From NCBI GenBank assembly GCA_021325635.1, contig JAJPGV010000018.1, positions 94,412-158,411 on the forward strand: a stretch of DNA of 64,000 bases. The letters run 5' to 3'. Below are positions 13,677 to 55,221 of the stretch, piece by piece (the first letter of the stretch is position 1; every line of letters starts with the position of its first letter). Below the pieces are notes generated by a model. The model searched no databases and was not told the origin of the DNA. It saw only the letters and a program-made list of their open reading frames with translations. The translations under genes were made by a program, and so were the position numbers. Source of the DNA: Chloroflexota bacterium (GTDB lineage Bacteria; Chloroflexota; JAJPGV01).

Positions 13677-14072
13677 ATGAACGAGTCCTTGCGGGTGATT
13701 CCATGCTGCCCGCCGATCTCACAGGCGGAGCTGTCCTCCGATGAGGCCGAACAGCTGGCCACGACCCTCAAGGCAGTGGCCGACCCGGCCCGCATTCGCC
13801 TTCTCAGCCTGATCCAGGCGCAGCCTCAGGGTGAGGCCTGCGTATGCCACTTGACGGAACCGCTCGGCCTGGGCCAGCCGACCGTGAGCCACCACCTCAG
13901 GGTGCTGGAAGATGCCGGCTTCCTCACGCATGAGCGGCGAGGGCGCTGGGTGTACTACCGCGCCGTGCCCGAACGACTGGCGGCCGTGCGAGATGCCTTC
14001 GCCCCGTCCCCCAAGCGCGCTGCCAGTCATGCAAAGGTCGTGAACGTGAGCTCGAAGGAATTGTCATGCTGA
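13677..14072 (+). CDS. arsR: ArsR/SmtB-family metalloregulator
   Basis: HTH pattern DPARIRLLSLI...CVCHL...GLGQPTVSHHLRVLEDAGF with a Cys pair for As(III) sensing. The start is chosen at ATG 13677; earlier in-frame ATGs exist back to 13446. Confidence 0.7.
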   Translation: MNESLRVIPCCPPISQAELSSDEAEQLATTLKAVADPARIRLLSLIQAQPQGEACVCHLTEPLGLGQPTVSHHLRVLEDAGFLTHERRGRWVYYRAVPERLAAVRDAFAPSPKRAASHAKVVNVSSKELSC

Positions 14073-14282
14073 GCGTGAACCGAAGCATCCCGGCCACACC
14101 TGCCGAGGGTTCCTTCTGGCGTCGTTCCGGTTAACCGCCATCGGCTCGGGATGATCGTTCCGCGAGCGGCTGAGGTGGGTGGCGGTGGTATGTGCGGCAA
14201 CGGCATCCTGGCATCAGAACGTATTGACATCCGAGGGAATTATCCCCTTGACGGCGGTACTGCACAAGCGTATAGTGGGGGT

Positions 14283-15233
14283 ATGTCCAAGGTAGATCGC
14301 AACCAGCCCCGACGATCCACTGCTTCGGAATCGCGCTACACGCTCTTTGAGTTTGACCGTGATTTCCCGGACGATGCTGCCTGCCTTGATTGGCTGGTAG
14401 GCCAGCTCTATCCGAACGGGATTCACTGCCCAAAGTGCGACAAGGTGACGAAGCACTACCGGGACCACAACCGCCCCTCGTATTCGTGTGAATACTGCGG
14501 GCACCGCGAGCACCCTATGGCCGGAACCATCTTTCAGGATTCGGCCACGTCGCTTCGCTTGTGGTTCTACGCGTTCTACCTGATGTCCAGCACTCGCTGC
14601 GGTATCTCCGCGAAACAGCTTGAGCGCGAGCTTGGCGTGACCTACAAGACGGCGTGGCGCATGTTCAACCGCATCCGCTCGCTCATGTATCAGTGCGACG
14701 CGCCGATTACCGAAGGCACCGTCGAGATTGATGAGGCCTACATCGGCGGCAAAGCGCACTGGCGAAGCAGAGGACGCGCTACCGGCATCAAGGGCGGCAT
14801 TAAGGGCAAGACCCAGGTGCTTGGATTCGCGCAACGTGGGGTGGACGGTGAGCCGGGAACCATCACGGCCAAAGTCATGCCCAACAACGTCAAGCGTGCA
14901 GTGCTCAACGAAGTCACAACCAAGGTGCTCGAAAAGGCCATCATCTACACCGATGAGGCCAACGCCTACGAGACGCTGACGAAGAAGGGCTATCACCATC
15001 GGCGCGTTCACCATCGCCAGAACATCTACGTCGATGGGGACGTTCACACGAACACCATCGAAGGGTTTTGGTCGCTGTTGAAGCGCGGAATCAGCGGCGT
15101 CTATCATGGCGTCTCCACCAAGCACCTTCAAACGTACTTGGACGAGTACACCTTCCGCTACAACAACCGGGAGGCTGATGGTAAAGGTATCTTCGACGTG
15201 CTTATGGAGCGGATTGAGAAGGCCCCGGCTTAG
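14283..15233 (+). mobile_element. IS1595-family (ISXO2-like) DDE transposase gene
   Basis: 317 aa with an N-terminal zinc ribbon (CPKCDK...CEYCGH). IS1595 core follows (DEAYIGG...YTDEANAY...TNTIEGFWSLLKRGI...YLDEYTFRYNNR). Element ends were not resolved by eye. Confidence 0.8.
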
Positions 15234-15390
15234 GCTTAGGGGCCTTCTCTGTTGCCTGGCGTAGCGGCTTGAAAAACTCGTCCCGCGTGGGCACTGGTAT
15301 CTCCAATCCGCCAGGCGTGTACTGCACGGGCTCTCCTGGCCGCGTGAGCGGCTTGTTGGGCTTGCGGGCCATCGTTCCTCCAGTCTAGCC

Positions 15391-16179
15391 ATGCTGCTCT
15401 ACCAACATCCCCCCTGTAGCTGGTCCTTGCGGTACCAACGGGCGCTCGATCATTTCGACACGTTCCACAAGACGTTTGAGTGGTTCCGCGAAAGTCACCC
15501 GTGCAAACTGGCTGTAAATCCTCAAAGTGAGCATCCGGGCGGGCTGATCTACGTCAAGGGCATCGACGCGGCACCCTTGCAGCTGAGCGTCATGCTTGGC
15601 GATGCGTTGCAGAACCTTCGCCAGTCCCTTGACCACATCGTTTGGGAATTGTCCATCGGAGCCACTGACAACTCGCGCACTGAGTTCTTCATCTCCGACA
15701 ATGCCAAGCTGTTCCGTACAAGGGGCATGGGGCGGATTGCCCGTGTCACCGACGATGCCAAGGCATTTATCGACGCTGTCCAGCCGTATTACCGAGGGGA
15801 CTTCACCGACAAGGCTCACGCGGAACCCTTGTGGATTCTGGACCGACTTGGAAATGTCGATAAGCACCGTGCCATTCACCTCCTGATGGTCAAGCCGCAC
15901 GGGACTTCCATCAGGTTCATTACGCCTGAGCGCGTTGAGTATTGGGACCTGACGCCGCCTAACATCAAGCTTGAACCTGGCGCAGTAGTCGGGGCTGTCA
16001 CGCAAGAACAACTGGACGCCATTTCCAAGGGAGAAGTGAATATGAATTTCACTATGGAGCTTGAGATAGCGTTCGCCGATGGTCCCGCTAAGGATCGGCT
16101 CGTAAGAGAAGTCTGGGCTGAGCTCAGTGCGGAGGTCGACGCCATCTTGACGCGCCTCTCCTATTGGCTCGTTGAGTAG
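15391..16179 (+). CDS. hypothetical protein with an HEPN-like Rx6H motif (possible abortive-infection / toxin-like cargo)
   Basis: 262 aa. Local GC is lower than the flanks. RLGNVDKH fits the HEPN Rx4-6H nuclease motif. The gene lies directly 3' of the IS transposase. Confidence 0.45.
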   Translation: MLLYQHPPCSWSLRYQRALDHFDTFHKTFEWFRESHPCKLAVNPQSEHPGGLIYVKGIDAAPLQLSVMLGDALQNLRQSLDHIVWELSIGATDNSRTEFFISDNAKLFRTRGMGRIARVTDDAKAFIDAVQPYYRGDFTDKAHAEPLWILDRLGNVDKHRAIHLLMVKPHGTSIRFITPERVEYWDLTPPNIKLEPGAVVGAVTQEQLDAISKGEVNMNFTMELEIAFADGPAKDRLVREVWAELSAEVDAILTRLSYWLVE

Positions 16180-16987: not shown

Positions 16988-17800
16988 ATGGCAGATGTGA
17001 AGCAGGCAGTACGCGAGCGTTACGGCGCCATCGCCGCCAATGTCGCTGAGGGGCAGCGCAATGTTGGCTGTTGTGAGGGCCCGAGCAGTTGCTGCGGGGG
17101 TGGGGAAAAGGACGTCATCAGCAGAGATCTGTACGACCAGGTGCAGATGGGTGACGTGCCGGCGGCGGCCCTGCTGGCCTCGCTGGGATGCGGCAATCCC
17201 ACAGCTCTGGCGCAGCTGCAGCCCGGCGAAACGGTGCTGGACCTTGGCAGTGGCGGTGGCATAGACGTGCTCCTCTCGGCCAAGCGTGTGGGTCCAAGCG
17301 GCTTCGCGTACGGTCTGGACATGACCGACGAGATGCTGTCCCTGGCCGAGCGCAACAGGGCCGAAGCGGGCGCCACCAACGTCGCGTTCCTCAGGGGAGA
17401 CATCGAGGCCATTCCGCTGCCGGATGAGACGATGGACGTGATCATCTCCAACTGCGTGATTAACCTGGCCGCGGACAAGGACAAAGTGCTGGCCGAGGCC
17501 TTCCGCGTCCTGAAGCGCGGTGGCCGGCTGGCGGTGTCGGACGTCGTGGTGCGGGGGCAGGTCCCAGAGGGGCTGCGCCGGCAGATGGAGTCGTGGGTCG
17601 GCTGCATCGCGGGCGCGCTGTCGGAAGACGAATACCGGTCCAAGCTGACCGCGGCGGGATTCGCCGAGGTCGACCTGGAGAGCACGCGCGCATATTCCTT
17701 GGACGACGTGCCCACCGGCGACTGGCAGCCCACCAAGCAGGATCGGGAGCAGCTCGAAGGCAAGTTCGTCAGCGCCTTCGTGCGGGCGTCCAAGCCCTAA
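16988..17800 (+). CDS. arsM: arsenite S-adenosylmethionine methyltransferase
   Basis: Class I SAM-binding motif VLDLGSGGGID. The ArsM/AS3MT-type Cys set is present (N-terminal CC...CC, later LGCGNP and SNCVIN). A low-GC promoter region lies upstream. Confidence 0.85.
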   Translation: MADVKQAVRERYGAIAANVAEGQRNVGCCEGPSSCCGGGEKDVISRDLYDQVQMGDVPAAALLASLGCGNPTALAQLQPGETVLDLGSGGGIDVLLSAKRVGPSGFAYGLDMTDEMLSLAERNRAEAGATNVAFLRGDIEAIPLPDETMDVIISNCVINLAADKDKVLAEAFRVLKRGGRLAVSDVVVRGQVPEGLRRQMESWVGCIAGALSEDEYRSKLTAAGFAEVDLESTRAYSLDDVPTGDWQPTKQDREQLEGKFVSAFVRASKP

Positions 17801-17890
17801 CCGGCCCGTCCTGCACCGCGGCGACAGATCGGCGATGATTCTGTCAGCGGCGCCCATGAGGCAAGCCACACGTGCAGGAGCGAGGACAAT

Positions 17891-18307
17891 ATGGCGGCGA
17901 ACGTGCAGGGCTCGGGCACGAGACAGGATCCGTGGATCTTGAAAACTCCCAGCGGCGGATCGGATTACCAGGCCTTCCGTGACGAGTCGCTGAGCCCGCC
18001 GGCCCTCGTGGTGCAGGTAGGGAAGACCGAGCTGCGCTACCACCTGCGCGCCATCGAAGACCTGCACAGCATGCTCAAGGCGCACGGCGACTGGATGGCG
18101 CTTGGCAGCGCCGACGAGCAGAAACCCGCGCCCGAGGGAAGCGTCGAAGCCTGGGGACGGTCGGAGAGCAACCCGGTTGGTGGCTGGTATGGCCTGAAGA
18201 AGGGTCTCAGGGGCCGCTTCGGTATGTACGTGCCACCGGTCCTCCAAGCTCTCGGTCTAGCCGAGGTCGAGAACCAGCCGCGCAACAATCGCATGCGCGC
18301 GCTCTAG
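17891..18307 (+). CDS. conserved hypothetical protein (138 aa)
   Basis: Well-formed ORF of unknown function. Confidence 0.4.
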   Translation: MAANVQGSGTRQDPWILKTPSGGSDYQAFRDESLSPPALVVQVGKTELRYHLRAIEDLHSMLKAHGDWMALGSADEQKPAPEGSVEAWGRSESNPVGGWYGLKKGLRGRFGMYVPPVLQALGLAEVENQPRNNRMRAL

Positions 18308-18336
18308 TCTGCCGCGACGGCTGCCGTGTCCCCACG

Positions 18337-18972
18337 TCAATGGGGGACGCAAGCGTACTCAACCAGGAGCTCGTAGCCATGCTGGACAGACGCGAACTGC
18401 GAGGCGTTCTCCAGCGCGCATGCCGAGAGATTGGCCAGCGCCGACAGGAACTCGAGCTCGGCTTCCGAAAAGCTGCGGCGCTCGGCGAGGTACAGGCACA
18501 GTGCGCCCGCGGCCCGGCCCCTGACCACCAGCGGCAGGCTCAAGGCCATCACGATGCCCTCCTTCCGGGCCTCCTCCGGGTACTGCCACTCAACGGCGTT
18601 GGTGATGTCCCTGATGACGATCCTGCCCTCGAGCGTTTCGCGAAGCCCGGCATTCAGCTCGGGCCGCAGCACGCCCTTGTCCAGGTAGCGCCGGCTCAGG
18701 CCGTATGAGGCGACCAGGTCGAGCCGATCTCGTTCGGCGCCCAGCGCCCAGATGGCGCAGCCCTTCACGCCGGTGGCCTCCGTCACGGACTGCACCGCCA
18801 GCAGTTGGATGTGCCCGCGGTCGAGGCTGGAGATGATGGCCAGCGCTACGTGGTACAGCGCGACGTAGAACTGCGCATCCTCGGCTTCCGAACCCGCCGG
18901 ATGAGGCTGGATATCAGCCGGGCTTCGCACCTTCAGGCCCAGCCACGGTCTGGCCAGGAACAGCTCCTCCAT
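18337..18972 (-). CDS. stand-alone GAF-domain protein
   Basis: GAF-fold pattern with no output domain. Start chosen at MEELFLARP. It lies immediately downstream of the giant oxidoreductase on the same strand. Confidence 0.65.
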   Translation of the reverse strand: MEELFLARPWLGLKVRSPADIQPHPAGSEAEDAQFYVALYHVALAIISSLDRGHIQLLAVQSVTEATGVKGCAIWALGAERDRLDLVASYGLSRRYLDKGVLRPELNAGLRETLEGRIVIRDITNAVEWQYPEEARKEGIVMALSLPLVVRGRAAGALCLYLAERRSFSEAELEFLSALANLSACALENASQFASVQHGYELLVEYACVPH

Positions 18973-18986
18973 CTCTCGCCTCCTGT

Positions 18987-21900
18987 TCAGGCATGGACCA
19001 GGTCGGGATGGCGCCGGAAGACGCTGTCGAGCCACAGGGTCGTGAGCTTTTCGGCCAGGCTGTTCTGGCGCAGCCGGTCGTTCAGGTTCTTCCAGTCGAC
19101 CTCATCCATCGGCTGGTCCTGGTTGAAGCAGCTGAAGACGACCATTTCGGCGCCCGTCTCAGGATCGACGTGCTTTTGCAGGCAGTGGCCGCAGACCTCC
19201 TTCATCATGCACTGCATGGGCGAGTTGACCGACGCCAGCGCGAGATGCTGGGGATTCAGCCTGCCGGCGAGGACCTCATGCCGCGATCTGGCAACCGCGG
19301 CCATCATGCCGGCGCTGCCGATGGCGATCAGCCTGTCCACCGAGCTCAGCGGGATGAGCTGCTCCCCCAGCTCTCCGCGATCGTAGGCAGCCATGGCCTG
19401 GACCACGTTGCCCTGGAAGGTCAGATCCTGGGGGCGCCGAGGCTCGATCAGCTCGCCGGCGTCGACGCTCCAGATCACCTGGTCGGCCGACGCTTCGATC
19501 TCGTCCTGGTGGAAGACGTCGTCGCGACTCTTGTAGGCGCCGAAATAGAGCACCCGGTTGCCGTTGGCCCGAATCGCTCCCGCCAGCGAGAACATCACGG
19601 CGTTTCCCAGACCGCCGCCGGCCAGCACCACCTGCTCGCCCTCGGGGATGTGCGTTGGCGCGCCGGTGGGGCCCATGAGCACGATCGGCTCGCCTTCGCG
19701 CAGGGTGGCGCACAGCCGTGAGCTGGCGCCGACTTCCAGCGCGATCAAGCCCACGATGCCGGCCCTCTTGTCGACCCACGCGCCCGTAAGCGCGATGCCC
19801 TCGGTCTGCAGCCGCCGCCCGTCCACGACCGGTGCCGTCGTCTCATAGTTCTGCAGCCTGTAGAACTGGCCAGGCTGGAAGTTGGCTGCCTGGTAAGGGG
19901 CATGGATGGCGATTTCCACGATGTTCCGGGTCAGACGTATGACGCTGTCCACGCGCGCGACCAGGATCTTGTCCAGGTCGCCCGTGAAGCTCTGCCAGGC
20001 GCGCCAGCGGTCGCGGCGTTCCTTTCTCGTTGGCGCATCGGCTCGATGCGGGAACAGATCGGCTACCTGCTTGTAGCCGGTCCTGGCCGAGGCCATGGCC
20101 TTTACCACGCTGCCGGCAAAGGCCGGGTGGTTGTCGCCGTAGAAGGTGACGTAGCGCCCATCCTGCTCGTAGCTGGTGAAGAACCCCGGGTCGTCCCGGG
20201 TTCCGGCGGCCGGCACGAGCCGGCCATTCTCCAGGCGATGTGGCTGGAAGAACTTGCCTCCCGCATCCAGCTCGAAGGTGCCGCCGTGCTCCTTCTCGTA
20301 GACGATGTTGGGGGTGGTTCCGGCGGCGACCAGCAGCGTGCCGGCAGGGAGCGTGACGGTCTCGCCGGATTCCTTCCAGATGCCGGACTCGGACTCCTGC
20401 AGCACGTCGAAGATCACGCTGCCCAGGCGGCCCCAGCGATCCGGCACGGCCTCGTTCGGCTCGACGCACTCGAGGATGCGCACGCCTTCCTCCAGGAAGG
20501 ACTGAATCTCCTCGTGGTTCACCCGATAGGCGGGAGCGTCCTGGATGCGTTTGCGATAGCACAGAGTGGCTCCGCCCCAGGACTGCAGCAGCGGCAGGAA
20601 GTTCGGCTTCTCGCCGGCCAGGCGTGCGCGCTCCCGCTCGGCGCGGATGGCGCGGCCGTGCTCCAGCTGCTCGGCCAGGATGGCCCGATCCTCCTCGCTC
20701 AGTGTTGCCAGCAGCTTCTCCTCCCCCATTTCGGCCGCGAGCTGCTCGTACAGCGACAGGGTCTTCTCGACCTGCACCGGGTAGTAGGCCAGAGCCTCGG
20801 TGCAGGCGTCCACCGCGGTCAACCCGCCGCCCACGACGACCACCGGCATGCGCAGGGTGAGGTTGGCGATGGAGGCCTTCTTGAACGCTCCGGACAGCTG
20901 CAGGCCCATGAGGAAGTCGCTTGCTCCGCCGATGCCGGGCAGAAGGTTGTTCTTGATGCTCAGCACGGTCGGCCGGCCGGCGCCGGCGGCGATGGCCACG
21001 TGCTGGAAGCCGGCCTTCCAGGCGTCGTCCAGGGTCATCGTCCCGCCGAACCGGATGCCGCCATACGCGCGGAAGGTCTTGCGCCGCATGAGCGTGAGGT
21101 AGATCAGCTTCAGGAAGTTCTTGTCCCAGCGGACGGTGATGCCGTATTCGGCGACGCCCCCGAAGCCACCCGATATGCGCTCGCCCAGGTCCTCCTGCAG
21201 CTCCGAGAAGTGCTTCACCGGTCTGGGTGGCAGATCCTTGTCCCACAGCAGGTCCTTGGGCAGGGGCTCGATCTTGAGGCCATCGACGCCGACGACGCCG
21301 AAGCCCTCATTGAGCAGCCATTGCGAGAGGGTGTACCCGGCCGGTCCGAGCCCATCGACGAGCACGTTGACGCCGTTGTACGGCAGCGTCTGCGGCCGCT
21401 CGACGTTCAGCGGGTTCCAGCGGGTGAGGAGGCCGTAGACCTCCACCCCCCACGGCAGCTGCAGCACCTCCCACAGGGTATTGGTCTCGATCTGCGGAAT
21501 GTTGACCGGCTCCTGCTTCTGGTAGATGCAGCTCTTCATGCAGTCGTTGCAGATGCGGTGGCCGGTGCCCGGGCACATGGGGTTGTCGAGCATCACCAGC
21601 GCCAGCGCGCCAACCGCATCGCCTTCGCGCCGCAGTGTGTGCGCCTCGCCGATCCGCTCGGCCAGCGGGCAGCCGTTGAGCGGGACCCCGAGCTCGTTGC
21701 GGCCAAACTGTCCGTCGCTTCGCGGCAGCGGGTAGCCGCGGGCGCAGGAGTCCTTCTCGCGCTCCTGGCACAGCACGCAGTAGTGGACGTGATCCAGGAC
21801 GCGGCGGGTGCTCCAGCGCCGGTCGGTCAGCGCGAAGCCGTCGCGCCGCCGCATCCTCCAGGCCGGCCCTTCCAGCACCGGCGGAGACAGACGATCGTTG

Positions 21901-22859
21901 CGCAGCAGCTCCACCAGGCCGGTCGGCTCCGGTCTCTCCTCCGGGGCATGGAGGCTGATCCAGTCGGCGAACAGTCCGTGCTCCCGAGCCAGCGCCGCGG
22001 CGGTGGCCACCCAGCATTCGTACAGCTCCAGCTGCTCGCTCAGCGCCGGTGGCACGCTTCCTTTGGGATAACGGGCCTCCTCCTGGAGCAGCGCGTCAAC
22101 GGTCGTTGCCAGGGCAAGCTCGGGGTCGATGGCTTCTTCCAGGATCCACTGCAAGCGCGCGTCGGGCGCGGGGGCTTCGTCCGGCGTGGCGTCCCGGTGC
22201 TTCTTGAGCGCGCGCCGCATGACGAACTCGCGCTTGAAGCGGTGCACGATCTCCGCCTCCTGAGCGCTGCGGGCAAACTCACGATTCCCCGGCTCCAGAC
22301 GGAACAGGTCGGCGATGAACGACGACAGCTGGCCGGCCATGCTCTTCAGCAGGTCGGAGCGCTCCGCCGCCTCAACAGCTTGGCCGGATTGGTAGGTTTC
22401 GAACCGGCTCCACAGCTCCGGATCCCGTGCTGCCACGCGCTGATGAAACATCCTGGTCAGTGTTGCCAACCGTTCGGGACGGTACAGATCGGCATACTCG
22501 AACCCTTCCAGCCCGAGCTGAAGCTCGCTGGGCGGCGCGACGAGCGCCTGTGGCGCTGCCATGTGCATTCCCGCCCGATTGGTCTTGAAAACGGTCGCCA
22601 TTCCATTCCCCTTTTTGTAAAAAGCTGCACGCATGGCATTGAGATGGATCCACCGCCGCATCCTGGGAGGCACGTTTGCTTCCTCGAAGATGGCCCCGGC
22701 TGGACACTCGAAGAGACAGACCGCGCAATCGATGCATTCTTCGGGCTCGACGTAGCGCAGGCCCGAGATGTCCGGGCCGTAGATGCATTCCGTCGCGCAG
22801 GCTCGGACGCAGGCCGGGTCTTTCTCCCGTCGGCACCGCCCCGTAATGACGTACGGCAT
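18987..22859 (-). CDS. giant fused flavoprotein: 7Fe ferredoxin + GltD/NfnB-like FAD/NAD(P) oxidoreductase with a 2x[4Fe-4S] region + PyrK/NfnA-like ferredoxin-reductase module
   Basis: The ORF spans 18987..23156 (1389 aa); the likely ATG at 22859 (MPYVITG, preceded by GAAGGGGA) gives 1291 aa.
- FdxA-like ferredoxin: PYVITGRC...CVRAC...CIY...CIDCAVCLFECP.
- GltD-type Cys cluster region: CVLCQ...C...CP...CNDCMKSC.
- Rossmann motifs: VLVDGLGPAGY and VVVVGGGLTAVD.
- PyrK/FNR-like C-terminus: RLQNYE...GPTGAP...GGGLGNA, with a terminal CMMKEVCGHC...C cluster. Confidence 0.75.
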   Translation of the reverse strand: MPYVITGRCRREKDPACVRACATECIYGPDISGLRYVEPEECIDCAVCLFECPAGAIFEEANVPPRMRRWIHLNAMRAAFYKKGNGMATVFKTNRAGMHMAAPQALVAPPSELQLGLEGFEYADLYRPERLATLTRMFHQRVAARDPELWSRFETYQSGQAVEAAERSDLLKSMAGQLSSFIADLFRLEPGNREFARSAQEAEIVHRFKREFVMRRALKKHRDATPDEAPAPDARLQWILEEAIDPELALATTVDALLQEEARYPKGSVPPALSEQLELYECWVATAAALAREHGLFADWISLHAPEERPEPTGLVELLRNDRLSPPVLEGPAWRMRRRDGFALTDRRWSTRRVLDHVHYCVLCQEREKDSCARGYPLPRSDGQFGRNELGVPLNGCPLAERIGEAHTLRREGDAVGALALVMLDNPMCPGTGHRICNDCMKSCIYQKQEPVNIPQIETNTLWEVLQLPWGVEVYGLLTRWNPLNVERPQTLPYNGVNVLVDGLGPAGYTLSQWLLNEGFGVVGVDGLKIEPLPKDLLWDKDLPPRPVKHFSELQEDLGERISGGFGGVAEYGITVRWDKNFLKLIYLTLMRRKTFRAYGGIRFGGTMTLDDAWKAGFQHVAIAAGAGRPTVLSIKNNLLPGIGGASDFLMGLQLSGAFKKASIANLTLRMPVVVVGGGLTAVDACTEALAYYPVQVEKTLSLYEQLAAEMGEEKLLATLSEEDRAILAEQLEHGRAIRAERERARLAGEKPNFLPLLQSWGGATLCYRKRIQDAPAYRVNHEEIQSFLEEGVRILECVEPNEAVPDRWGRLGSVIFDVLQESESGIWKESGETVTLPAGTLLVAAGTTPNIVYEKEHGGTFELDAGGKFFQPHRLENGRLVPAAGTRDDPGFFTSYEQDGRYVTFYGDNHPAFAGSVVKAMASARTGYKQVADLFPHRADAPTRKERRDRWRAWQSFTGDLDKILVARVDSVIRLTRNIVEIAIHAPYQAANFQPGQFYRLQNYETTAPVVDGRRLQTEGIALTGAWVDKRAGIVGLIALEVGASSRLCATLREGEPIVLMGPTGAPTHIPEGEQVVLAGGGLGNAVMFSLAGAIRANGNRVLYFGAYKSRDDVFHQDEIEASADQVIWSVDAGELIEPRRPQDLTFQGNVVQAMAAYDRGELGEQLIPLSSVDRLIAIGSAGMMAAVARSRHEVLAGRLNPQHLALASVNSPMQCMMKEVCGHCLQKHVDPETGAEMVVFSCFNQDQPMDEVDWKNLNDRLRQNSLAEKLTTLWLDSVFRRHPDLVHA

Positions 22860-23182
22860 ACCGGTCGAATCCCCTTCTTCGGGCGTCCTGACGCGCCGTC
22901 GAATGCTGTCCGAGCTCTTTGCCCTTCGTACTGCCGGCACGGTAAAGCCGGCATAAAGGAGCTGTAATGCGGCCATGAACGCGGGTTCCATCGCGGTATC
23001 CCAGGCGGCCTGCTGCTCGCGATGGGCTGTAACGCGGCTGAAGGAAGCGCTTGGACGCTTGGGCAGCCGCGTCGCGGCGGGCGCAACTGCTACAGTGTTA
23101 CCCAATGTATCGCTACCGTCGACGTTGATCTGAGCTTCGTCTCCGTCTAGCGCCACGGCTGGCGCACTGGCTGCTGCCGGTC

Positions 23183-24334
23183 GTGGTTCGCGCGCCGCTC
23201 ACATTGCTCGCGGCGCTGCTGTTCGTCAGCTTCGCCGACGAATGGGTCACCTACTGGCCCTTCGGGGCCCTCGAGCCTATCCGAGCCGGCCTCGGGCTGT
23301 CCTACGCCGAGATAGGCGTAGCCGTTGCATCCCTCACTGCCGGAGGCCTGGCCGGCCATTTCTTCCGGGTGGCTGCCGACTTCGTGCAGCTGCGCTGGCT
23401 GGCGAGCCTGGGAGCCGCCGGCGTGGCGATCGGGATGCTGACCTTCGGCCTTGGTCACTCCCTGCCTGTCCTGGCCGTGGGCGGCTTCGTTTGGGGTGGC
23501 GCCGTCGACGCCTTCCTTGTCGGCTGCGAGCTGGCCCTGCTCGACCTATGCCCGGACGAGCTCCCCACCGCCCTCGGCCGAGTGAACGCGTACGGCTCGG
23601 TGGGCGACCTGCTGGCGCCCGTGACCCTGGCCGGCGTGCTGGCATTGGGAGCGTCGTGGAGGGTGCTGTTCGTCGTGGGCGCAGCCTTCATGGTCCTGTA
23701 CGCGGTGGTCCTGGCGAGCCAGGTGTTTCCGGAGCGACACCGGCAACCGCCCGAACCGGCAGCTTCGGCGGTCTGGTCGGTGCTGCGCGATCCACGGGTC
23801 ATCCTGCTGGGTGTCATCGATGGCCTGCACGGATTGCTCGACGAGCCGCTCCTGGGGTACCTCAACGCCTTCCTCGAAGGGGTACGGGCGTGGCCGGCGC
23901 CGGCGGCCACCGCGCTGATATCCGCCATCGTTGCGGCCGGCCTGTGTGGCTACCTGGCCGTGCCGCCGATCAGCCGGCGCATCGAGCAGCGGTTGCTGCT
24001 GCCGCTGTTCGCCGCGCTGGTAGCCGCCTCTGTGGCGACGCTGGTGTTCGTTCCCGTCGGCGCCGTCGAAGTTCTCGGCGCGATCCTGTTCGGTTTCTGC
24101 GGCGCCGTGTTCTACGCCACGTTGGAGGCCACCTACCTTAGCCTCAGGCCCGGCCAGGCGGGTACGACAGGAGCGGTCGTCTCCGCCATCGGCCTGGCGG
24201 GCCTGGGATTTCCCGCTCTGGTTGGCGCGATTTCGGATGCGCGCGGCCTCGGCGCCGGCATGGCCGCCTACGTGGCCGTGCCGGCAGTGGTCGTGGTGCT
24301 CACCATCGTCCAGGCTCGCTGCTCGAAGCGGTAG
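23183..24334 (+). CDS. MFS transporter
   Basis: 383 aa, about 12 TM, with an MFS-like loop motif. Confidence 0.65.
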   Translation: MVRAPLTLLAALLFVSFADEWVTYWPFGALEPIRAGLGLSYAEIGVAVASLTAGGLAGHFFRVAADFVQLRWLASLGAAGVAIGMLTFGLGHSLPVLAVGGFVWGGAVDAFLVGCELALLDLCPDELPTALGRVNAYGSVGDLLAPVTLAGVLALGASWRVLFVVGAAFMVLYAVVLASQVFPERHRQPPEPAASAVWSVLRDPRVILLGVIDGLHGLLDEPLLGYLNAFLEGVRAWPAPAATALISAIVAAGLCGYLAVPPISRRIEQRLLLPLFAALVAASVATLVFVPVGAVEVLGAILFGFCGAVFYATLEATYLSLRPGQAGTTGAVVSAIGLAGLGFPALVGAISDARGLGAGMAAYVAVPAVVVVLTIVQARCSKR

Positions 24335-24350
24335 GGTGGGCGGCTTGGGC

Positions 24351-24965
24351 CTACGGACGGGGCCGTGGGAAGGGCAGCAGCTGAGGCACCTCGCGCCTGT
24401 AGGCTTCGTAGCGCTGGCCGAATGTTTCCAGCAGCAGGCGCTCCTCGGCGTGGATCTTCACCGCGAAATAGACCACGAAGATCGCGAAGGCGACCAGCGT
24501 GAGCGCGGCGCCGCTGGCCAGCGCGGTTCCCAGGAGCATGCCGGTCATCCCGGTGTAGATCGGGTGCCGCGTCACCCGGTAGGGACCCTCGATGTGCAGC
24601 TCATGGCGAGCCTTGATGGCCGGCTGGCTGGTCCACATCGTGCCCAACGTCCATCTGGCCCACATGGTGAAGGCGGTCGATACCAGCAGCAGCCCGAGGC
24701 CGGCGAGCTGCATGTCGAGATTCGCGAAGCTCAGGCTCGTCCACAGGCCATGGGGAACGAAACGCTCCGCTATCCAGACCAGGGCGACGCCGGCCAACCA
24801 GTTGCTCCAGCCGCCGGAGCTGAACCTCGAACCGGCTCGCTCGACCTGTGGGGCGCGCTGGCGGTTGTACAGCGCTCCGACGATCCACACGGCCAGGAAG
24901 AGGCCCCAGCAGCCGTAGATGACGGGGCTGAAGGGACTCGCTGTTGGAAGGATATCGATCTGCAT
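24351..24965 (-). CDS. isoprenylcysteine carboxyl methyltransferase (ICMT/PEMT)-family membrane methyltransferase
   Basis: C-terminal family motif RVTRHPIYTGM...EERLL...FG..Y..Y...VP in a multi-TM protein. Confidence 0.7.
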   Translation of the reverse strand: MQIDILPTASPFSPVIYGCWGLFLAVWIVGALYNRQRAPQVERAGSRFSSGGWSNWLAGVALVWIAERFVPHGLWTSLSFANLDMQLAGLGLLLVSTAFTMWARWTLGTMWTSQPAIKARHELHIEGPYRVTRHPIYTGMTGMLLGTALASGAALTLVAFAIFVVYFAVKIHAEERLLLETFGQRYEAYRREVPQLLPFPRPRP

Positions 24966-24967
24966 GT

Positions 24968-24997
24968 ATCTAGATTAGACTAATCTAGATTAGATAC
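24968..24997. promoter_or_regulatory. perfect palindrome TCTAGATTAGaCTAATCTAGA (also an 11-bp direct repeat), putative PadR operator
   Basis: Sits in the 52-bp divergent intergenic region between the ICMT-like gene and padR. Confidence 0.5.
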
Positions 24998-25017
24998 AAC
25001 GTACCGAGCGGAGATAC

Positions 25018-25539
25018 GTGTTGTCGTACCTCGATCTTGTCGTGCTGCGGGTGCTCGCCAAGGAGCCTGCCCATGGGTACGCTATTCGACAGCGGGTGGA
25101 GGAGATCATGGGCGGCACGGTCTCGCTGAATCCGAACGTCCTGTACCCCACGCTGCGGCGGTTCGAGGAAGCCGGCGCCGTCGAGAAGAGCGTGGAGATG
25201 CAGCAGGGCCGGCCGCCGCGTCATGTATACCGGCTGCTGCCTCGGGGTGAAGAGCTGTTCACGGACCTCTTGCGCGACTTTGGCCCCGACGAGGCGCGCA
25301 ATGCAGCGGAGTTCCAGACCCGCGTAGCCTTCTTTGACCTCCTGGAGACTCACGAACGCGATCGGATTCTGGATGCCCGCGACGCCGCGCTCAGCGAGCA
25401 GCTGTGGCACGTTCAAAGTCAACAGGAGCGCGCCAGGAATCATTGGTCCAAGCTGGTTACCCGGCATCTCATCCATCGGCTGGAGCTCGAACGCGCCTGG
25501 GTCCGGGAGCTGCGGCAGCTGGCTGGGCAGTCCGCCTGA
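25018..25539 (+). CDS. PadR-family transcriptional regulator
   Basis: N-terminal winged helix (LVVLRVLAKEPAHGYAIRQRV...NPNVLYPTLRRFEEAG) with a C-terminal coiled-coil extension. Confidence 0.8.
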   Translation: MLSYLDLVVLRVLAKEPAHGYAIRQRVEEIMGGTVSLNPNVLYPTLRRFEEAGAVEKSVEMQQGRPPRHVYRLLPRGEELFTDLLRDFGPDEARNAAEFQTRVAFFDLLETHERDRILDARDAALSEQLWHVQSQQERARNHWSKLVTRHLIHRLELERAWVRELRQLAGQSA

Positions 25540-25567
25540 TCGCCGACATTCGCAGCAATCGGGAACG

Positions 25568-26071
25568 TCAGCTCTCGAGCTCGACGAAGCCCACGTCCAG
25601 CACGATTGACCCGCTGAGCCCGTCAGGCGCAGCGAAGTGGACCTCCATCCGGCTGCCCGTCGGCAGATCTTCCGTGATGGCCAGCGTGATATGCGCATCG
25701 CCGCCGGCTCGGATTGGGAAATAGCGCATCGGCTGTGTATCGCGCATGATGCTCAAGTAGATCATCGCCTCGCTCAGGTTGCCGGCCCGCAGGTAGAGCA
25801 GCCTGGCCTGCTTTCCGCCAGGGACCGTGTAGATCAGGTTAGGATTGAGCAGTCCCGACGTATACCAGCCGGCTCCCACAAATGGGAAAACGCCCTGCAG
25901 GAAGAGAGGCCGCGCCAGGCCGCGTCGCATCAAGGCCTCGATGCGGCTCTCCACGATCAGCGGCTCGCGATCCCAGCCTTCGTGACTCAACACTGCTTCG
26001 TCGTCAAACCAGAGTCGACTCATGCGGTTGACAGTATAGGCACGGATAAGCCGCGCTGCTTTGTGCAACAT
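25568..26071 (-). CDS. hypothetical protein
   Basis: 167-aa ORF; start uncertain (alternative MSRLWFDDE). No clear domain. Confidence 0.35.
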   Translation of the reverse strand: MLHKAARLIRAYTVNRMSRLWFDDEAVLSHEGWDREPLIVESRIEALMRRGLARPLFLQGVFPFVGAGWYTSGLLNPNLIYTVPGGKQARLLYLRAGNLSEAMIYLSIMRDTQPMRYFPIRAGGDAHITLAITEDLPTGSRMEVHFAAPDGLSGSIVLDVGFVELES

Positions 26072-26317
26072 GCATAGTCGTAATTAGGCACTTGCGCCCA
26101 GTTTGTTTCCATTACGTTTCGACTTATTGACTTTGCCCAATAGGCGTCCGTAGACTGCGATCAGGCCGCCGGAACCGGTAGCGGGTTCTCGGAGCGGTTT
26201 CGCAGCAATGGGGCTGGCGCGCGAGGGTGCGGTCACTCTTGGGCCGCCGCCCATTCGATGGGGCTGTTTCCCTTGTGGCCGCCTGTCTTCCGCCAGCGGA
26301 TAAGGAGTTGGGACGGC

Positions 26318-27760
26318 ATGCCACGCACATGGATCGAGCACTGGAATCCCGAGGACGAAGGGTTTTGGGAGGCGACGGGCAAAGCGATTGCCCGGCGGAA
26401 CTTGATCTTCTCGATCTTCGCCGAATTCCTGGGCTTCGCCGTTTGGCAGATCTTCAGCGTCGTGGCGGTGAACCTACCGAACGCCGGCTTCACGTTCTCC
26501 GTCCCGCAGCTGTTCCTGCTTGCTTCGCTGCCTGGGCTCGTGGGGGCTACCATGCGCTTCCCCTACACGGTGGCCGTGCCTAAGTTCGGCGGTCGCAACT
26601 GGACTATCGTCAGCGCCCTGCTGCTGCTCGTTCCCACCTCGCTGGTGGGCGTCCTGGTCCAGCACCCCAGCACTCCCTTCTGGGCGTTTGCCATCGCGGC
26701 AGCCAGCGCTGGCTTCGGCGGTGGCAACTTCGCCTCCAGCATGGCCAACATCAGCTTCTTCTATCCCGACAAGCACAAGGGCCTGGCCCTCGGATTGAAC
26801 GCCGGTGGCGGCAACCTGGGCGTCAGCGTGGTGCAGTTCGCGATCCCGTTTGCCATCACCGTGAGCCTGTTTGGGCCCTTGGCCGGCGCCCCCGAGACGC
26901 TGATCAAGAACGGCGCTGCCGCCGGCCAGTTGTGGCTGCAGAACGCCGGCTTCTTCTGGATCCCGCTCATTCTGCTCGCCGTCATCTGCGCCTGGCTGTT
27001 CATGGATAACCTGTCGGTCAGCCGAGCCAGACTGGCCGACCAAGCCACCATCCTCAAGAGCAGGCACACCTACCTGCTGTCGTGGCTGTACATCGGCACC
27101 TTCGGCTCGTTCATCGGTTACAGCGGCGCCTTTCCGCTGCTCATCAAGACGCAGTTCCCCGGCGTCAACCCGCTGCAGCTTGCCTTCCTGGGGCCTCTGG
27201 TTGGCTCGCTCATACGACCCGTGGGCGGCTGGCTGTCGGATCGCCTGGGTGGCACGTACGTCACGCTGTGGAACTACGGCATCATGATCGTGGCTGTCGC
27301 CGGCGTCATCGCTTCGCTGAGCGTCCACAACTTCGGCAGCTTCTTCGCCTGCTTCATGCTGCTGTTCGCCACAGCCGGGCTGGGCAACGGCTCGACCTTC
27401 CGCATGATCCCATCGATCTTCCGGAGCATGCATCTCGCGCGGGCGGAGCGCACCGGACAGGACCGAGCCCTCGCGCTCAAGGAAGCGGGCAAAGAGACAG
27501 CTGCGTCACTGGGTTTCGCGGGCGCCGTCGGCGCTTACGGCGGGTTCCTCGTGCCAAACAGCTACAGCACCTCGATCGCGGCCACCGGCGGCGTCCAGGC
27601 AGCCCTGTGGGGCTTCATCGGCTTCTACGTCACCTGCATCTTCATCACCTGGGCGGTGTACCTCAGGCCGGAGATGGGGCGGCGCCGAACGGCGGCGGCT
27701 CAACCTGGGGTCATGGCAGCTGGCGACATGGCTGTCCCGGAAGCGGAGGCCGTAGCCTAG
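26318..27760 (+). CDS. narK: nitrate/nitrite transporter, MFS NNP family
   Basis: NNP signature regions (GFAVWQIF..., AAASAGFGGGNFASSMANISFFYP, GLNAGGGNLG). AAGGAG RBS before the ATG at 26318. Confidence 0.85.
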   Translation: MPRTWIEHWNPEDEGFWEATGKAIARRNLIFSIFAEFLGFAVWQIFSVVAVNLPNAGFTFSVPQLFLLASLPGLVGATMRFPYTVAVPKFGGRNWTIVSALLLLVPTSLVGVLVQHPSTPFWAFAIAAASAGFGGGNFASSMANISFFYPDKHKGLALGLNAGGGNLGVSVVQFAIPFAITVSLFGPLAGAPETLIKNGAAAGQLWLQNAGFFWIPLILLAVICAWLFMDNLSVSRARLADQATILKSRHTYLLSWLYIGTFGSFIGYSGAFPLLIKTQFPGVNPLQLAFLGPLVGSLIRPVGGWLSDRLGGTYVTLWNYGIMIVAVAGVIASLSVHNFGSFFACFMLLFATAGLGNGSTFRMIPSIFRSMHLARAERTGQDRALALKEAGKETAASLGFAGAVGAYGGFLVPNSYSTSIAATGGVQAALWGFIGFYVTCIFITWAVYLRPEMGRRRTAAAQPGVMAAGDMAVPEAEAVA

Positions 27761-53486: not shown

Positions 53487-54338
53487 ATGAAAATTGCCCT
53501 GGCGCAGATTGCGCCGAAGCTCGGAGATCTGCCCAGCAACCTGGCGCTGCACCTGGAATGGATCCGGCAGGCCAAGCAGTCGGGCTGTGACCTCGTGGTC
53601 TTCCCGGAGCTGTCCTTGACTGGCTATTTCCTCGAGGAGCTGGCCTACCACGTGTGCCTGCGGCTGGATTCCCCCGAGCTCGGCCAGCTGTGCGAGGCTG
53701 CCCGCGGGACGTCGGCGGTGGTCAGCTTCGTGGAGGAGACGAGCGACTTCCACTACTTCATCTCGGCGGCCTTCATCGAGGACGGGGCCATAAAGCACGT
53801 CCATCGCAAGGTCTACCTGCCGACGTACGGCATGTTCACCGACCAGCGCTACTTCGCCGAGGGAGACCGTATCAGGGCGTTCGACGCCGGCTTTGGACGT
53901 GTGGGCCTGCTCATTTGCGAGGATTTCTGGCACAACTCGGCGGTCAGCATCCTGGCGGCCGACGGGGCGAATTACCTGATCAACGTCAGCAGCAGTCCCG
54001 GGCGTGGGGTGGTGACCGGCGGCCGAACGCTTGGCAGCTCCGACGCGGTCGAGATGCTGAACCGCATGTACGCCCAGTTCTTCACCAGCTTCGTCTTCTT
54101 CTGCAACCGTGTCGGCTACGAAGATGGCATCAACTTCTGGGGGGGCTCGGAGGTCATTGGGCCGGATGGTGAGTGCCTGGCCAAGGCGCCCTACTTCGAC
54201 GAACAGCTGCTGTGCGTCGAGATCGATCCCTCAGCCCTGCGCCGCGTGCGTATCAATCTTCCGTTGCTGCGCGACGAGAAGCTGGAGCTGACGCTGCGTG
54301 AGTACCAGCGCATCCTGGAGCAGCGTTTTGGCCGCTAA
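53487..54338 (+). CDS. carbon-nitrogen hydrolase (nitrilase superfamily), likely the glutaminase partner of NadE
   Basis: Catalytic E-K-C pattern ([11 protein letters not shown]...HRKVYLP...LLICEDFWH). Overlaps nadE by ~40 nt. Confidence 0.8.
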
Positions 54339-55221
54339 GGCGGGGCCGCCATCCAGCAAGGACGGGGCTGGGCGGCCCGCGGACAGCGCTTCGCGCCTGC
54401 CCGATCGCCTGGCCATCAACACGGCTACGACTGAGCGGCTGCTCACGGGTTTCATCGCCAATGAGGTGCGTAAGGTGGGCTTTCAACGGGTGGTGGTTGG
54501 CCTGTCCGGCGGGATCGATTCCGCGCTGTCGGCCTTCCTGGCGGCCAGGGCACTGGGCCCCGAGAACGTCACCGCCATCATGATGCCCTACAGGACCAGC
54601 AGTCCCGAGAGCCTGGCGGACGCCCAGTCGGTGGTCGATCATCTGGCTGTCGGCAGCAAGCTCATCGAGATTACGCCGATGGCCGACGCATTCATCGCCC
54701 AGAGCAACGCGGATACCAACAAGCGCAAAGGCAACGTGATGGCCCGCACCCGAATGGTCGTGCTGTACGACCAGTCGGAGGCGTTGAACGCCCTGGTGCT
54801 TGGCACCAGTAACAAGACCGAGCTGCTGCTGGGCTACGGCACGCTCCATGGGGACATGGCCTCGGCCATCAACCCACTGGGGGATCTCTACAAGACCCAG
54901 GTTTGGGCATTGAGCGAAGCGCTGGGTGTGCCCGACAGCATCGTGAACAAGCCGCCAACGGCCGACCTATGGGTTGGCCAGACCGACGAGGGCGAGCTTG
55001 GCTTCAGCTACCGGGCGGTGGATGAGGTCCTGTTTCAGCTGGTGGACGAGCGCTACTCAGAGGACGAGCTCGTCGAGCGCGGTTACGATGCGACCTTCGT
55101 GCGCAAGGTAGCGCGGCTGATCATGATCTCCCAGTTCAAACGAGCGCTGCCGGTTATCGCCAAGATCTCGGCGCGAACGATTACCCGCGAGTTCCGCTAT
55201 CCGCGGGATTGGGGTCGCTGA
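54298..55221 (+). CDS. nadE: NAD+ synthetase (stand-alone NadE domain)
   Basis: PP-loop SGGIDS and a NadE fold. Start is GTG 54298 or TTG 54328. Confidence 0.85.

What the first reader, a model, noticed from the sequence alone, without database searches (positions are those of the whole stretch)
18337..23156. Giant single-polypeptide ferredoxin–NfnB/GltD–NfnA/PyrK fusion flavoprotein followed by a stand-alone GAF protein
One ~1290-aa ORF concatenates three modules: an FdxA-type 7Fe ferredoxin, a glutamate-synthase-small-subunit / NfnB-like module, and a PyrK / NfnA / SudB-like FAD-NAD(P) reductase.

- The middle module has a 2x[4Fe-4S] Cys region and two Rossmann folds.
- The C-terminal module ends in a Cx2GxCx2C...C [2Fe-2S] site.

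In known systems (NfnAB, SudAB) the last two modules are separate subunits. Fusing both to a ferredoxin would make a self-contained NAD(P)H-ferredoxin electron-transfer, possibly bifurcating, machine. A ~300-aa linker of unknown function sits between the ferredoxin and the GltD-like part. The co-transcribed GAF-only protein suggests ligand-controlled activity.
Basis: partly seen in the sequence, partly recalled or inferred. Interest (0 to 1): 0.7.

Follow-up and report, generated by a model that had tools for sequence, protein, structure and literature searches.

The report
Ferredoxin joined to Nfn-like flavoenzyme
A common but unstudied Nfn-like redox enzyme has here been joined to its neighbouring ferredoxin gene, apparently through loss of one stop codon, which hints at the enzyme's electron partner but is not a new kind of machine.

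Summary
The ORF is real: minus strand, ATG 22859 to stop 18987, 1290 aa. A GAF-only gene (18337-18972) follows 14 nt downstream.

The domain reading is largely right. It has an N-terminal 7Fe FdxA-type ferredoxin, an NfnB/GltD-like module and a C-terminal NfnA/PyrK-like module. The best sequence and fold matches in the PDB are the NfnAB/NfnSL subunits.

Two claims do not hold:
- The NfnB-NfnA fusion is not special. Residues ~113-1290 belong to a large, conserved, uncharacterised family with more than 7,800 database relatives (Pfam RP005_N + Pyr_redox_2; NCBIfam PRK06567-like). It occurs in Acidobacteriota, Planctomycetota, Myxococcota, methanotrophs and Nitrospirota.
- The "~300-aa linker" is that family's own N-terminal helical domain. 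It has no homologue among solved structures.

Only the ferredoxin fusion is unusual, and it is a singleton. In the closest full-length relative (66% identity) the ferredoxin is a separate 82-aa gene overlapping the enzyme gene by 4 nt. Its TGA stop aligns exactly with a GGA codon here (22604-22602). That codon is followed by ATG and preceded by an RBS-like AAGGGG. An independent assembly reproduces the sequence.

The GAF link recurs in three lineages. One of them also places pntAB in the operon.

Verdict: a Nfn-like NAD(P)H:ferredoxin oxidoreductase that has captured its partner ferredoxin. Moderate interest.

The parts
18987..22859 (-). Fused gene, 1290 codons plus TGA stop (18989-18987). Public gene callers used upstream starts: ATG 22991 (1334 aa), or GTG 23156 as inferred from the Logan gene's position.
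   Evidence: Homology to FdxA begins exactly at M1.
22871..22876 (-). RBS-like AAGGGG, 11 nt upstream of ATG 22859.
   Evidence: Read from the sequence.
22602..22859 (-). 7Fe (3Fe-4S + 4Fe-4S) FdxA-type ferredoxin domain, residues 1-86. Cys 9, 17, 21, 25, 42, 45, 48 and 52 align with Azotobacter FdI Cys 8, 16, 20, 24, 39, 42, 45 and 49.
   Evidence: It is 48% identical to the separate 82-aa ferredoxin of locus L001.
22602..22604 (-). GGA (Gly86), the codon on which the fusion depends. It aligns with the TGA stop of the orthologous ferredoxin gene in L001.
   Evidence: No nearby stops in the other two frames.
22608..22613 (-). RBS-like AAGGGG, 6 nt upstream of the internal ATG (M87, 22601-22599). 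It is a relic of, or a still usable, start for the unfused enzyme.
   Evidence: Homologues start at about this point.
22524..22601 (-). Flexible tether, residues 87-112. It corresponds to the variable N-terminal tail of the unfused homologues.
   Evidence: AF2 pLDDT is 30-45 for residues 91-110. The stretch is not conserved in alignment A1.
21825..22523 (-). RP005_N-type all-helical domain, residues 113-345. It is family-specific and of unknown function.
21450..21824 (-). Fe-S domain, residues 346-470. It has eight family-conserved Cys (361, 364, 372, 397, 429, 437, 440, 444), giving two [4Fe-4S] sites as in the NfnB/GltD N-terminal domain.
   Evidence: (Fer4_20).
19980..21449 (-). NfnB/GltD-like FAD + NADPH module, residues 471-960. 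Motifs are G503-L-G-P-A-G508 and G677-G-G-L-T-A-V-D684 ... Y768-R-K-R771. A ~75-residue helical insertion sits inside the NADPH-binding fold.
18990..19979 (-). NfnA/PyrK-like FAD + NAD(H) module with a C-terminal [2Fe-2S] site, residues 961-1290. Motifs are E1020-G-I-A-L-T1025, G1081-G-G-L-G-N-A-V1088 and C1217/C1223/C1226/C1244.
18337..18972 (-). Stand-alone GAF protein, 211 aa. AGGAGG lies at 18984-18979, and the gene starts 14 nt after the big gene's stop.
   Evidence: It is 50% identical to the GAF heading the L001 operon and 55% to the GAF after the L116 enzyme gene.

Best explanation
The core (residues ~113-1290) is an ordinary member of a large, uncharacterised family of single-chain iron-sulfur flavoproteins. 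These carry, in order, a family-specific helical domain (RP005_N), an NfnB-like module (two [4Fe-4S] sites, FAD, NADPH) and an NfnA-like module (FAD, NAD(H), [2Fe-2S]).

In the clade to which this organism belongs, the enzyme gene was preceded by a translationally coupled 7Fe ferredoxin gene. Here a TGA-to-GGA change removed the ferredoxin's stop codon. The ferredoxin is now tethered to the enzyme by a ~26-residue flexible tail. An RBS-like sequence and an ATG at the old start may still allow the unfused enzyme to be made as well.

Inferred mechanism, by homology to NfnAB:
- NADPH reduces the FAD of the NfnB-like module.
- One electron path runs through the two [4Fe-4S] clusters to the ferredoxin.
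- The other runs through the [2Fe-2S] cluster to the second FAD and NAD(H).
- The enzyme would thus be a NAD(P)H:ferredoxin oxidoreductase or transhydrogenase, possibly bifurcating.

The small GAF protein, linked to the enzyme gene in three lineages, is most likely a ligand-sensing regulatory partner.

Shown: the anatomy, family membership, the singleton status and origin of the fusion, and structural similarity to Nfn. Inferred: cofactor content, ferredoxin as substrate, direction of electron flow, bifurcation and the GAF role.
For: Family:
- More than 7,800 homologues of ~1170 aa cover residues ~113-1290. They carry PF27156 (RP005_N) + PF07992.
- 597 genome hits span many phyla.
- PRK06567 scores 597 bits, E=7e-179.

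Nfn likeness:
- phmmer and profile hits in the PDB are Nfn subunits, apart from one weak StnABC chain.
- AF2 gave pLDDT 85.5 and pTM 0.89. Foldseek's best matches are 5jca_L, 5jfc_L, 5vj7_A and 4ylf_B (target TM 0.77-0.81) and 5jca_S and 4ylf_A (0.78-0.83).
- All Cys and nucleotide motifs are invariant across the family.

Ferredoxin: all seven 7Fe ligand Cys align with Azotobacter FdI.

Origin of the fusion:
- L001 has a separate 82-aa ferredoxin overlapping the enzyme gene by 4 nt.
- Its stop aligns with GGA 22604-22602, which is followed by ATG and preceded by AAGGGG.
- None of 80 other genome loci, nor L118, has a ferredoxin nearby.
- No protein among 1.84 billion representatives matches both halves.
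- The junction peptide was found in none of the metagenome contigs scanned.

The sequence is real: Logan contig L085 is 100% identical over 21549-26755.

Context:
- The L001 operon reads GAF-pntAA-pntAB-pntB-fdx-enzyme.
- In L116/L117 the enzyme gene (69% identity) is followed by GAF.
Against: - No biochemical data exist for any member of the family, and the literature searches found only annotation-level mentions.
- The ferredoxin linkage is seen in only two lineages of a very large family. There are no conserved neighbours elsewhere, so ferredoxin may not be the general partner.
- The RP005_N domain and the helical insertion have no counterpart in Nfn and could redirect function.
- From memory, Nfn ligates the [2Fe-2S] and the proximal [4Fe-4S] cluster with Asp and Glu. 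Here the conserved positions are Cys, so redox tuning for bifurcation may differ.
- The Fe-S loops have low pLDDT (52-67). No coordinates were available to measure distances between cofactors.
- The ferredoxin part has CA in place of the usual CP after Cys21. Its GC3 is 0.73, against 0.82-0.92 for the RP005_N and catalytic modules.
Confidence: 0.6

Rival explanations
1. The fusion is a sequencing or consensus error. The organism really has TGA at 22604-22602 and two separate, translationally coupled genes, as in L001.
For: - The fusion depends on a single base.
- It is unique among billions of proteins.
- An intact RBS and ATG follow immediately.
- The closest full-length relative is unfused.
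Against: - An independently built Logan contig of run SRR5581483 has the identical sequence across the junction (100% over 5207 nt).
- The fused product is on record in NCBI, JGI and ENA.
- Consensus substitution errors in short-read assemblies are rare (general knowledge).
- No alternative frame has a nearby stop, so an indel error cannot explain it.
- Both assemblies may derive from the same reads, so this is not fully independent.
Confidence: 0.08
2. The stop loss is real but recent and functionally neutral or mildly harmful. The working enzyme is the unfused 1204-aa form, initiated at M87. The fused form is a by-product, not an adapted self-contained machine.
For: - The architecture is a singleton.
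- The RBS-like AAGGGG and ATG are preserved at the old start.
- The tether is just the ordinary disordered N-terminal tail.
Against: - The ferredoxin part keeps all cluster ligands and an open frame.
- Tethering a cognate carrier to its reductase is generally tolerated or beneficial, as in P450BM3-type fusions (general knowledge).
- Nothing in the sequence indicates decay.
Confidence: 0.3
3. The family is not a ferredoxin-linked, Nfn-type transhydrogenase. It is a NAD(P)H-dependent electron-input enzyme for another acceptor or substrate handled by the RP005_N domain, in the way GltD serves GltB or the DPD N-terminal domains serve its pyrimidine site. The ferredoxin adjacency in one clade is incidental.
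For: - RP005_N is conserved, large and without a known fold match.
- 80 of 82 loci show no ferredoxin neighbour and no conserved partner.
- The family lives mostly in aerobes, where Nfn is rare according to PMC6405883.
Against: - The profile finds Nfn subunits, not GltD or DPD, in the PDB.
- A 4-nt overlap of fdx with the enzyme gene implies co-translation.
- The same operon carries pntAB, another pyridine-nucleotide transhydrogenase.
- The family keeps both dinucleotide sites and both electron branches.
Confidence: 0.25

Closest known systems
[quoted passage not shown]
   Same: - Both catalytic modules are present. The NfnB/L-like part has an Fe-S domain and two Rossmann folds. The NfnA/S-like part has the FAD motif E-x-I-x-L-T, a GGGxG NAD site and a C-terminal [2Fe-2S] loop.
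- These are the best sequence, profile and fold matches in the PDB.
- Ferredoxin is the partner.
   Different: - It is one polypeptide in B-then-A order.
- It has an extra ~230-aa N-terminal helical domain.
- It has a ~75-aa helical insertion in the NADPH fold.
- The cluster positions are all Cys, whereas Nfn uses Asp and Glu ligands (from memory).
- The family is found mainly in aerobic lineages.
- Activity and bifurcation are untested.
[quoted passage not shown] ECH_0778)
   Same: - Same overall architecture: RP005_N, then the GltD-like and PyrK-like modules.
- Strong homology (597 bits, E=7e-179).
- Homologues carry Pfam RP005_N.
   Different: - The score is below the equivalog cut-off (1072), so it is a sister clade rather than the Rickettsiales orthologue.
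- No member of that family, in any search here, has a fused ferredoxin.
Naturally fused Nfn homologues, pattern C of Liang et al. 2019 (PMC6405883); NCBIfam PRK12779/PRK12775 types
   Same: Single chain with the NfnB-like part first and the a-FAD/NAD/[2Fe-2S] part at the C-terminus. Also uncharacterised.
   Different: - Those models match only weakly (89 and 72 bits against cut-offs of 1519 and 1895).
- They lack RP005_N and a ferredoxin.
7Fe ferredoxin FdxA (Azotobacter vinelandii FdI, 1FRJ/5FD1 and others)
   Same: - The N-terminus is MPYVIT.
- All seven cluster-ligand Cys and the C-terminal helix are aligned.
   Different: - It is covalently joined to a reductase.
- The score is below the NCBIfam equivalog cut-offs (58.9 against 135).
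- CA replaces CP after Cys21.
GltD, dihydropyrimidine dehydrogenase N-terminal domains, SudAB
   Same: Same superfamily of Fe-S domain plus FAD/NADPH module. Fold matches are significant.
   Different: - They are weaker than Nfn in Foldseek E-value (1e-17 and 7e-14 against 1e-20).
- They are absent from the profile search at E<1e-5.
- No GltB-like or DPD catalytic partner is present.

Membership tests
RP005-type NfnB-NfnA-like fusion family (Pfam PF27156 RP005_N + PF07992; NCBIfam PRK06567-like) | Full-length homology over ~1170 aa with the family architecture. | tested here: met
   Hits are 52-66% identical over 90-92% of the query. Alignments A1/A2 have hundreds of invariant columns.
RP005-type NfnB-NfnA-like fusion family (Pfam PF27156 RP005_N + PF07992; NCBIfam PRK06567-like) | The RP005_N domain is present. 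| tested here: inconclusive
   The local Pfam scan returned no RP005_N hit for the window protein; the model may be missing from that copy. PF27156 is precomputed on homologues that are 46-66% identical in this region. The region aligns and folds confidently.
RP005-type NfnB-NfnA-like fusion family (Pfam PF27156 RP005_N + PF07992; NCBIfam PRK06567-like) | Reaches the NCBIfam PRK06567 equivalog cut-off (1072 bits). | tested here: not met
   597 bits. It is homologous but not the Rickettsiales equivalog.
[quoted passage not shown] | NfnB-like and NfnA-like folds with their cofactor-binding motifs. | tested here: met
.
[quoted passage not shown] | Two-subunit NfnA+NfnB, or A-then-B fused, organisation without extra domains. 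| tested here: not met
   The order is B-then-A in a single chain, with RP005_N and a helical insertion.
[quoted passage not shown] | Ferredoxin- and NAD-coupled NADPH oxidation (flavin-based bifurcation). | not testable with these tools
   This needs enzyme assays.
FdxA 7Fe ferredoxin | Cys pattern for one [3Fe-4S] and one [4Fe-4S] cluster (Av FdI C8, C16, C49 / C20, C39, C42, C45). | tested here: met
   Alignment to 1FRJ and related entries. Query C9, C17, C52 / C21, C42, C45, C48.
FdxA 7Fe ferredoxin | Reaches the NCBIfam FdxA equivalog cut-offs. | tested here: not met
   58.9 bits against 135 (FdxA_Protbact) and 53.1 against 125 (FdxA_Actino).
Stand-alone GAF-domain protein | A single GAF domain with no output domain. 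| tested here: met
   Pfam GAF, GAF_2 and GAF_3 cover residues 79-210 of the 232-aa longest ORF, with no other family. Close homologues of 190-214 aa have the same make-up.

The most novel reading that the evidence does not exclude
The fusion would be a natural Rosetta stone. It would show that the whole RP005-type family, found in thousands of mostly aerobic bacteria and related to the Rickettsiales proteins, is an Nfn-type, possibly bifurcating, NADPH:ferredoxin/NAD+ oxidoreductase that uses 7Fe FdxA.

Together with PntAB (the L001 operon), it would give aerobes a proton-motive-force-driven route from NADH to low-potential reduced ferredoxin. That route would be under control of a small GAF sensor.

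The window protein would then be the first natural reductase-tethered-ferredoxin Nfn.
Probability: 0.2. Interest if true: 0.7.

Novelty: new variant of a known kind. Interest (0 to 1): 0.42.

Why it matters
The enzyme family is very large. By its NCBIfam model name it extends to obligate intracellular Rickettsiales. Its only label is a misleading annotation ("glutamate synthase beta/2-polyprenylphenol hydroxylase"), and I found no functional study.

Three observations in this clade are the first concrete genomic pointers to its redox partner and physiological role:
- A gene fusion with a ferredoxin.
- A translationally coupled ferredoxin in the closest full-length relative.
- A shared operon with pntAB.

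They suggest that Nfn-type chemistry, regarded as an anaerobe trait, may be common in aerobes. The fused protein would also be a convenient self-contained construct for testing that idea.

The fusion itself is a one-codon accident seen once. It is not a new class of machine.

Tried and rejected
- **Searches for other ferredoxin-enzyme fusions.**
  - A word-indexed search with residues 1-221 found only unrelated ferredoxin fusions.
  - An exhaustive phmmer search of 1.84 billion representatives found no protein matching both halves.
  - A metagenome scan found only the L001 organism again.
- **Conserved neighbours across the family.** Clustering of flanking ORFs from 82 loci put no family in more than 9 loci. 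GAF, ferredoxin and Pnt are absent from the other 80 loci.
- **pnt genes in the window.** None found.
- **Indel or frameshift explanation of the fusion.** Rejected, because there are no stops in the other frames near the junction.
- **Exact-sequence look-ups with alternative starts.** Only the 1334-aa form (ATG 22991) is on record. The related MFS protein P0282 could not be traced.
- **The L116/L117 lineage.** Its 5' end is cut at residue 157, so the junction is unknown.
- **AFDB fold search.** The library was unavailable.
- **Promoter and terminator scan.** Uninformative.
- **Literature searches.** Searches for RP005, the annotation name, and Nfn in aerobes found no characterisation.
- **Taxonomy of the source organism.** Not established.
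Full report
**1. What is in the sequence**

The feature lies on the minus strand. The longest ORF runs 23156..18987. Homology begins at ATG 22859, which gives MPYVIT, the standard start of FdxA ferredoxins, and is preceded by AAGGGG. From that start the product is 1290 aa.

A second ORF follows. Its likely start is ATG 18972, behind AGGAGG and 14 nt after the TGA of the large gene. It encodes a 211-aa protein that is a single GAF domain. Public gene calls agree on this GAF protein. They record the large gene as a 1334-aa product from ATG 22991.

**2. Domain content**

- Pfam gives only weak hits: Pyr_redox_2, Fer4 and Fer4_20.
- NCBIfam is clearer.
  - PyrK/NfnA-type models over residues 975-1195.
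  - FdxA models over residues 1-82.
- Against PDB sequences the matches are as follows.
  - P. furiosus NfnI small subunit (residues 979-1135).
  - Azotobacter 7Fe ferredoxin I (residues 3-79).
  - NfnI and Xfn large subunits (residues 567-691).
  - T. maritima NfnA.
- The alignment to ferredoxin I places Cys 9, 17, 21, 25, 42, 45, 48 and 52 on Av Cys 8, 16, 20, 24, 39, 42, 45 and 49. All seven ligands of a [3Fe-4S] plus [4Fe-4S] ferredoxin are therefore present. The ligand assignment comes from established knowledge of FdI.

**3. The core is a large known-but-unstudied family**

- A database search returned more than 7,800 relatives. The best 120 listed are 1160-1284 aa long and 52-66% identical. 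They cover 90-92% of the query, that is, everything except the ferredoxin, and all carry Pfam RP005_N plus Pyr_redox_2.
- A scan of species-representative genomes found 597 loci. They come from Acidobacteriota, Planctomycetota, Myxococcota (Myxococcus, Sorangium, Labilithrix), methanotrophic Gammaproteobacteria, Nitrospirota and others.
- Conservation is very high. The invariant positions include the following.
  - Eight Cys in the Fe-S region (361, 364, 372, 397, 429, 437, 440, 444).
  - Both Rossmann signatures (GLGPAG and GGGLTAVD...YRKR).
  - The NfnA-type motifs (EGIALT and GGGLGNAV).
  - Four C-terminal Cys (1217, 1223, 1226, 1244).
- The "~300-aa linker" is thus two things: a poorly conserved ~26-residue tail (87-112) and a conserved helical domain (113-345).

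**4. Structure**

An AF2 model of residues 91-1290 was built with 72 aligned sequences. It is confident (pLDDT 85.5, pTM 0.89). The low-confidence parts are the N-terminal tail and the cofactor-less Fe-S loops.

Foldseek against the PDB ranks these first:

| Match | Target TM |
|---|---|
| NfnI-L (5jca_L, 5jfc_L) | 0.77-0.81 |
| Xfn (5vj7_A) | 0.80 |
| TmNfnB (4ylf_B) | 0.80 |
| NfnI-S (5jca_S) | 0.83 |
| TmNfnA (4ylf_A) | 0.78 |

By E-value, dihydropyrimidine dehydrogenase comes after the P. furiosus Nfn large subunits, and GltD is weaker still.

A profile of the family finds only Nfn-type subunits in the PDB at E<1e-5, apart from one weak StnABC chain. It also shows a ~75-position insertion inside the NADPH fold relative to Nfn.

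**5. The ferredoxin fusion is a singleton that arose from a stop-codon loss**

- In the closest full-length relative (P0001, 66% identity; locus L001) the ferredoxin is a separate 82-aa gene. Its TGA overlaps the GTG start of the enzyme gene.
- Aligning the two ferredoxins puts that stop exactly on GGA 22604-22602 of the window. ATG (M87) follows immediately and AAGGGG lies 6 nt upstream. One T-to-G change explains the fusion.
- No indel can explain it, because the other frames have no nearby stop.
- None of 80 other genome loci has a ferredoxin within 6 kb. L118 has none in its 418-nt upstream gap.
- An exhaustive search of 1.84 billion representative proteins with residues 1-221 found no protein matching both halves.
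- A scan of 241 million metagenome records found both parts together only in L086, which is the L001 organism in another sample. The junction peptide was found in none of the contigs scanned.
- The sequence itself is reproducible. Logan contigs assembled independently from run SRR5581483 are 100% identical over 21549-26755, which includes the junction, and over 17180-19226.

I therefore take the stop loss as real in the DNA (about 0.9). It is evolutionarily recent and possibly neutral. The unfused enzyme may still be made from M87.

**6. Context**

- In the window the neighbours are unrelated: a methyltransferase, DUF6855, a divergent MFS transporter, PEMT, and further on an assimilatory nitrate/nitrite cluster.
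- In L001 the genes form a tight operon with 4-nt overlaps: GAF-pntAA-pntAB-pntB-fdx-enzyme.
- The two GAF proteins are 50% identical.
- A third lineage (L116/L117) has an enzyme 69% identical to the window's. It is followed 15 nt later by a GAF that is 55% identical. Its 5' end is missing.
- The GAF-enzyme link therefore recurs in three lineages with two gene orders. It is absent elsewhere in the family, as are any other conserved neighbours.

**7. Mechanism**

By homology to NfnAB (structures 4YLF and 5JCA; established knowledge), I infer the following:
- NADPH reduces the FAD of the NfnB-like module.
- One branch leads through two [4Fe-4S] clusters to ferredoxin, which is tethered here.
- The other branch leads through the [2Fe-2S] cluster to the second FAD and NAD(H).

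The translational coupling of fdx to the enzyme gene, and the pntAB genes in the same operon, fit a role in balancing NADH, NADPH and ferredoxin pools.

A speculative extension combines the two enzymes. PntAB uses the proton-motive force to convert NADH to NADPH. An Nfn-type enzyme running towards ferredoxin reduction would then amount to a proton-motive-force-driven reduction of ferredoxin by NADH.

Bifurcation, nucleotide specificity and direction are untested. The all-Cys cluster sites, the extra domain and the insertion are real differences from Nfn.

**8. Comparison with the known, and novelty**

Fused Nfn homologues, including a B-then-A "pattern C", are described but uncharacterised (PMC6405883). 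The window protein matches those models only weakly.

It belongs with the RP005/PRK06567-like proteins. These appear in the literature only as an annotation (for example ECH_0778 in PMC4251998). Searches for RP005 and related terms found nothing functional.

- The core is a new member of a known, unstudied family.
- The ferredoxin-fused architecture is a new variant, seen once.

**9. Verdict**

- Interest is moderate. The value lies in the hint it gives about the partner and role of a very large orphan enzyme family, not in the fusion as a machine in its own right.

Noticed in passing
L001 4332-11540 (JGI 3300005532 Ga0070739_10000143); same in L086: A tight operon with 4-nt gene overlaps: stand-alone GAF, pntAA, pntAB, pntB, an 82-aa 7Fe ferredoxin, then the RP005-type enzyme. 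It links a membrane transhydrogenase to the Nfn-like enzyme.
   Followed up: partly
L116 2-4057 and L117 1-3729 (Logan SRR27875949/48): A third lineage. Its enzyme is 69% identical to the window's and is followed 15 nt later by a GAF protein that is 55% identical. The contigs start at window residue 157 or later, so it is unknown whether a ferredoxin is fused there.
   Followed up: partly
window 19980-21449 (residues ~690-765 of the enzyme): A family-wide helical insertion of ~75 residues lies between the GGGxxxxD strand-helix and the YRKR strand of the NADPH-binding Rossmann fold. It is absent from NfnB/NfnL.
   Followed up: partly
window 53487-54338 (+) and 54298-55221 (+): A CN_hydrolase ORF and an NAD_synthase ORF overlap by 41 nt. 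This looks like a split or frameshifted glutamine-dependent NAD+ synthetase (NadE), which in many bacteria is a single polypeptide.
   Followed up: no
window 14151-15233 (+), within 14000-16000: An IS1595-family transposase sits in a patch of lower G+C (0.585, against ~0.66 for the window).
   Followed up: no
window 26258-32339 (+): An assimilatory nitrate cluster: an MFS transporter, a NasA-like molybdopterin oxidoreductase (705 aa) and an 822-aa NirB-like nitrite reductase.
   Followed up: no
window 50814-53309 (+): An 831-aa fusion of a nucleotidyl transferase/hexapeptide module with a phosphoglucomutase/phosphomannomutase.
   Followed up: no
window 55257-58160 (-): A 967-aa GAF-GGDEF-EAL protein. 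Its GAF region is only distantly similar (24% identity) to the stand-alone GAF protein of L001.
   Followed up: no
window 22602-22859 (-): The fused ferredoxin segment has lower third-position G+C (0.73) than the RP005_N and catalytic modules (0.82-0.92). It also has Ala in place of the usual Pro after Cys21.
   Followed up: no
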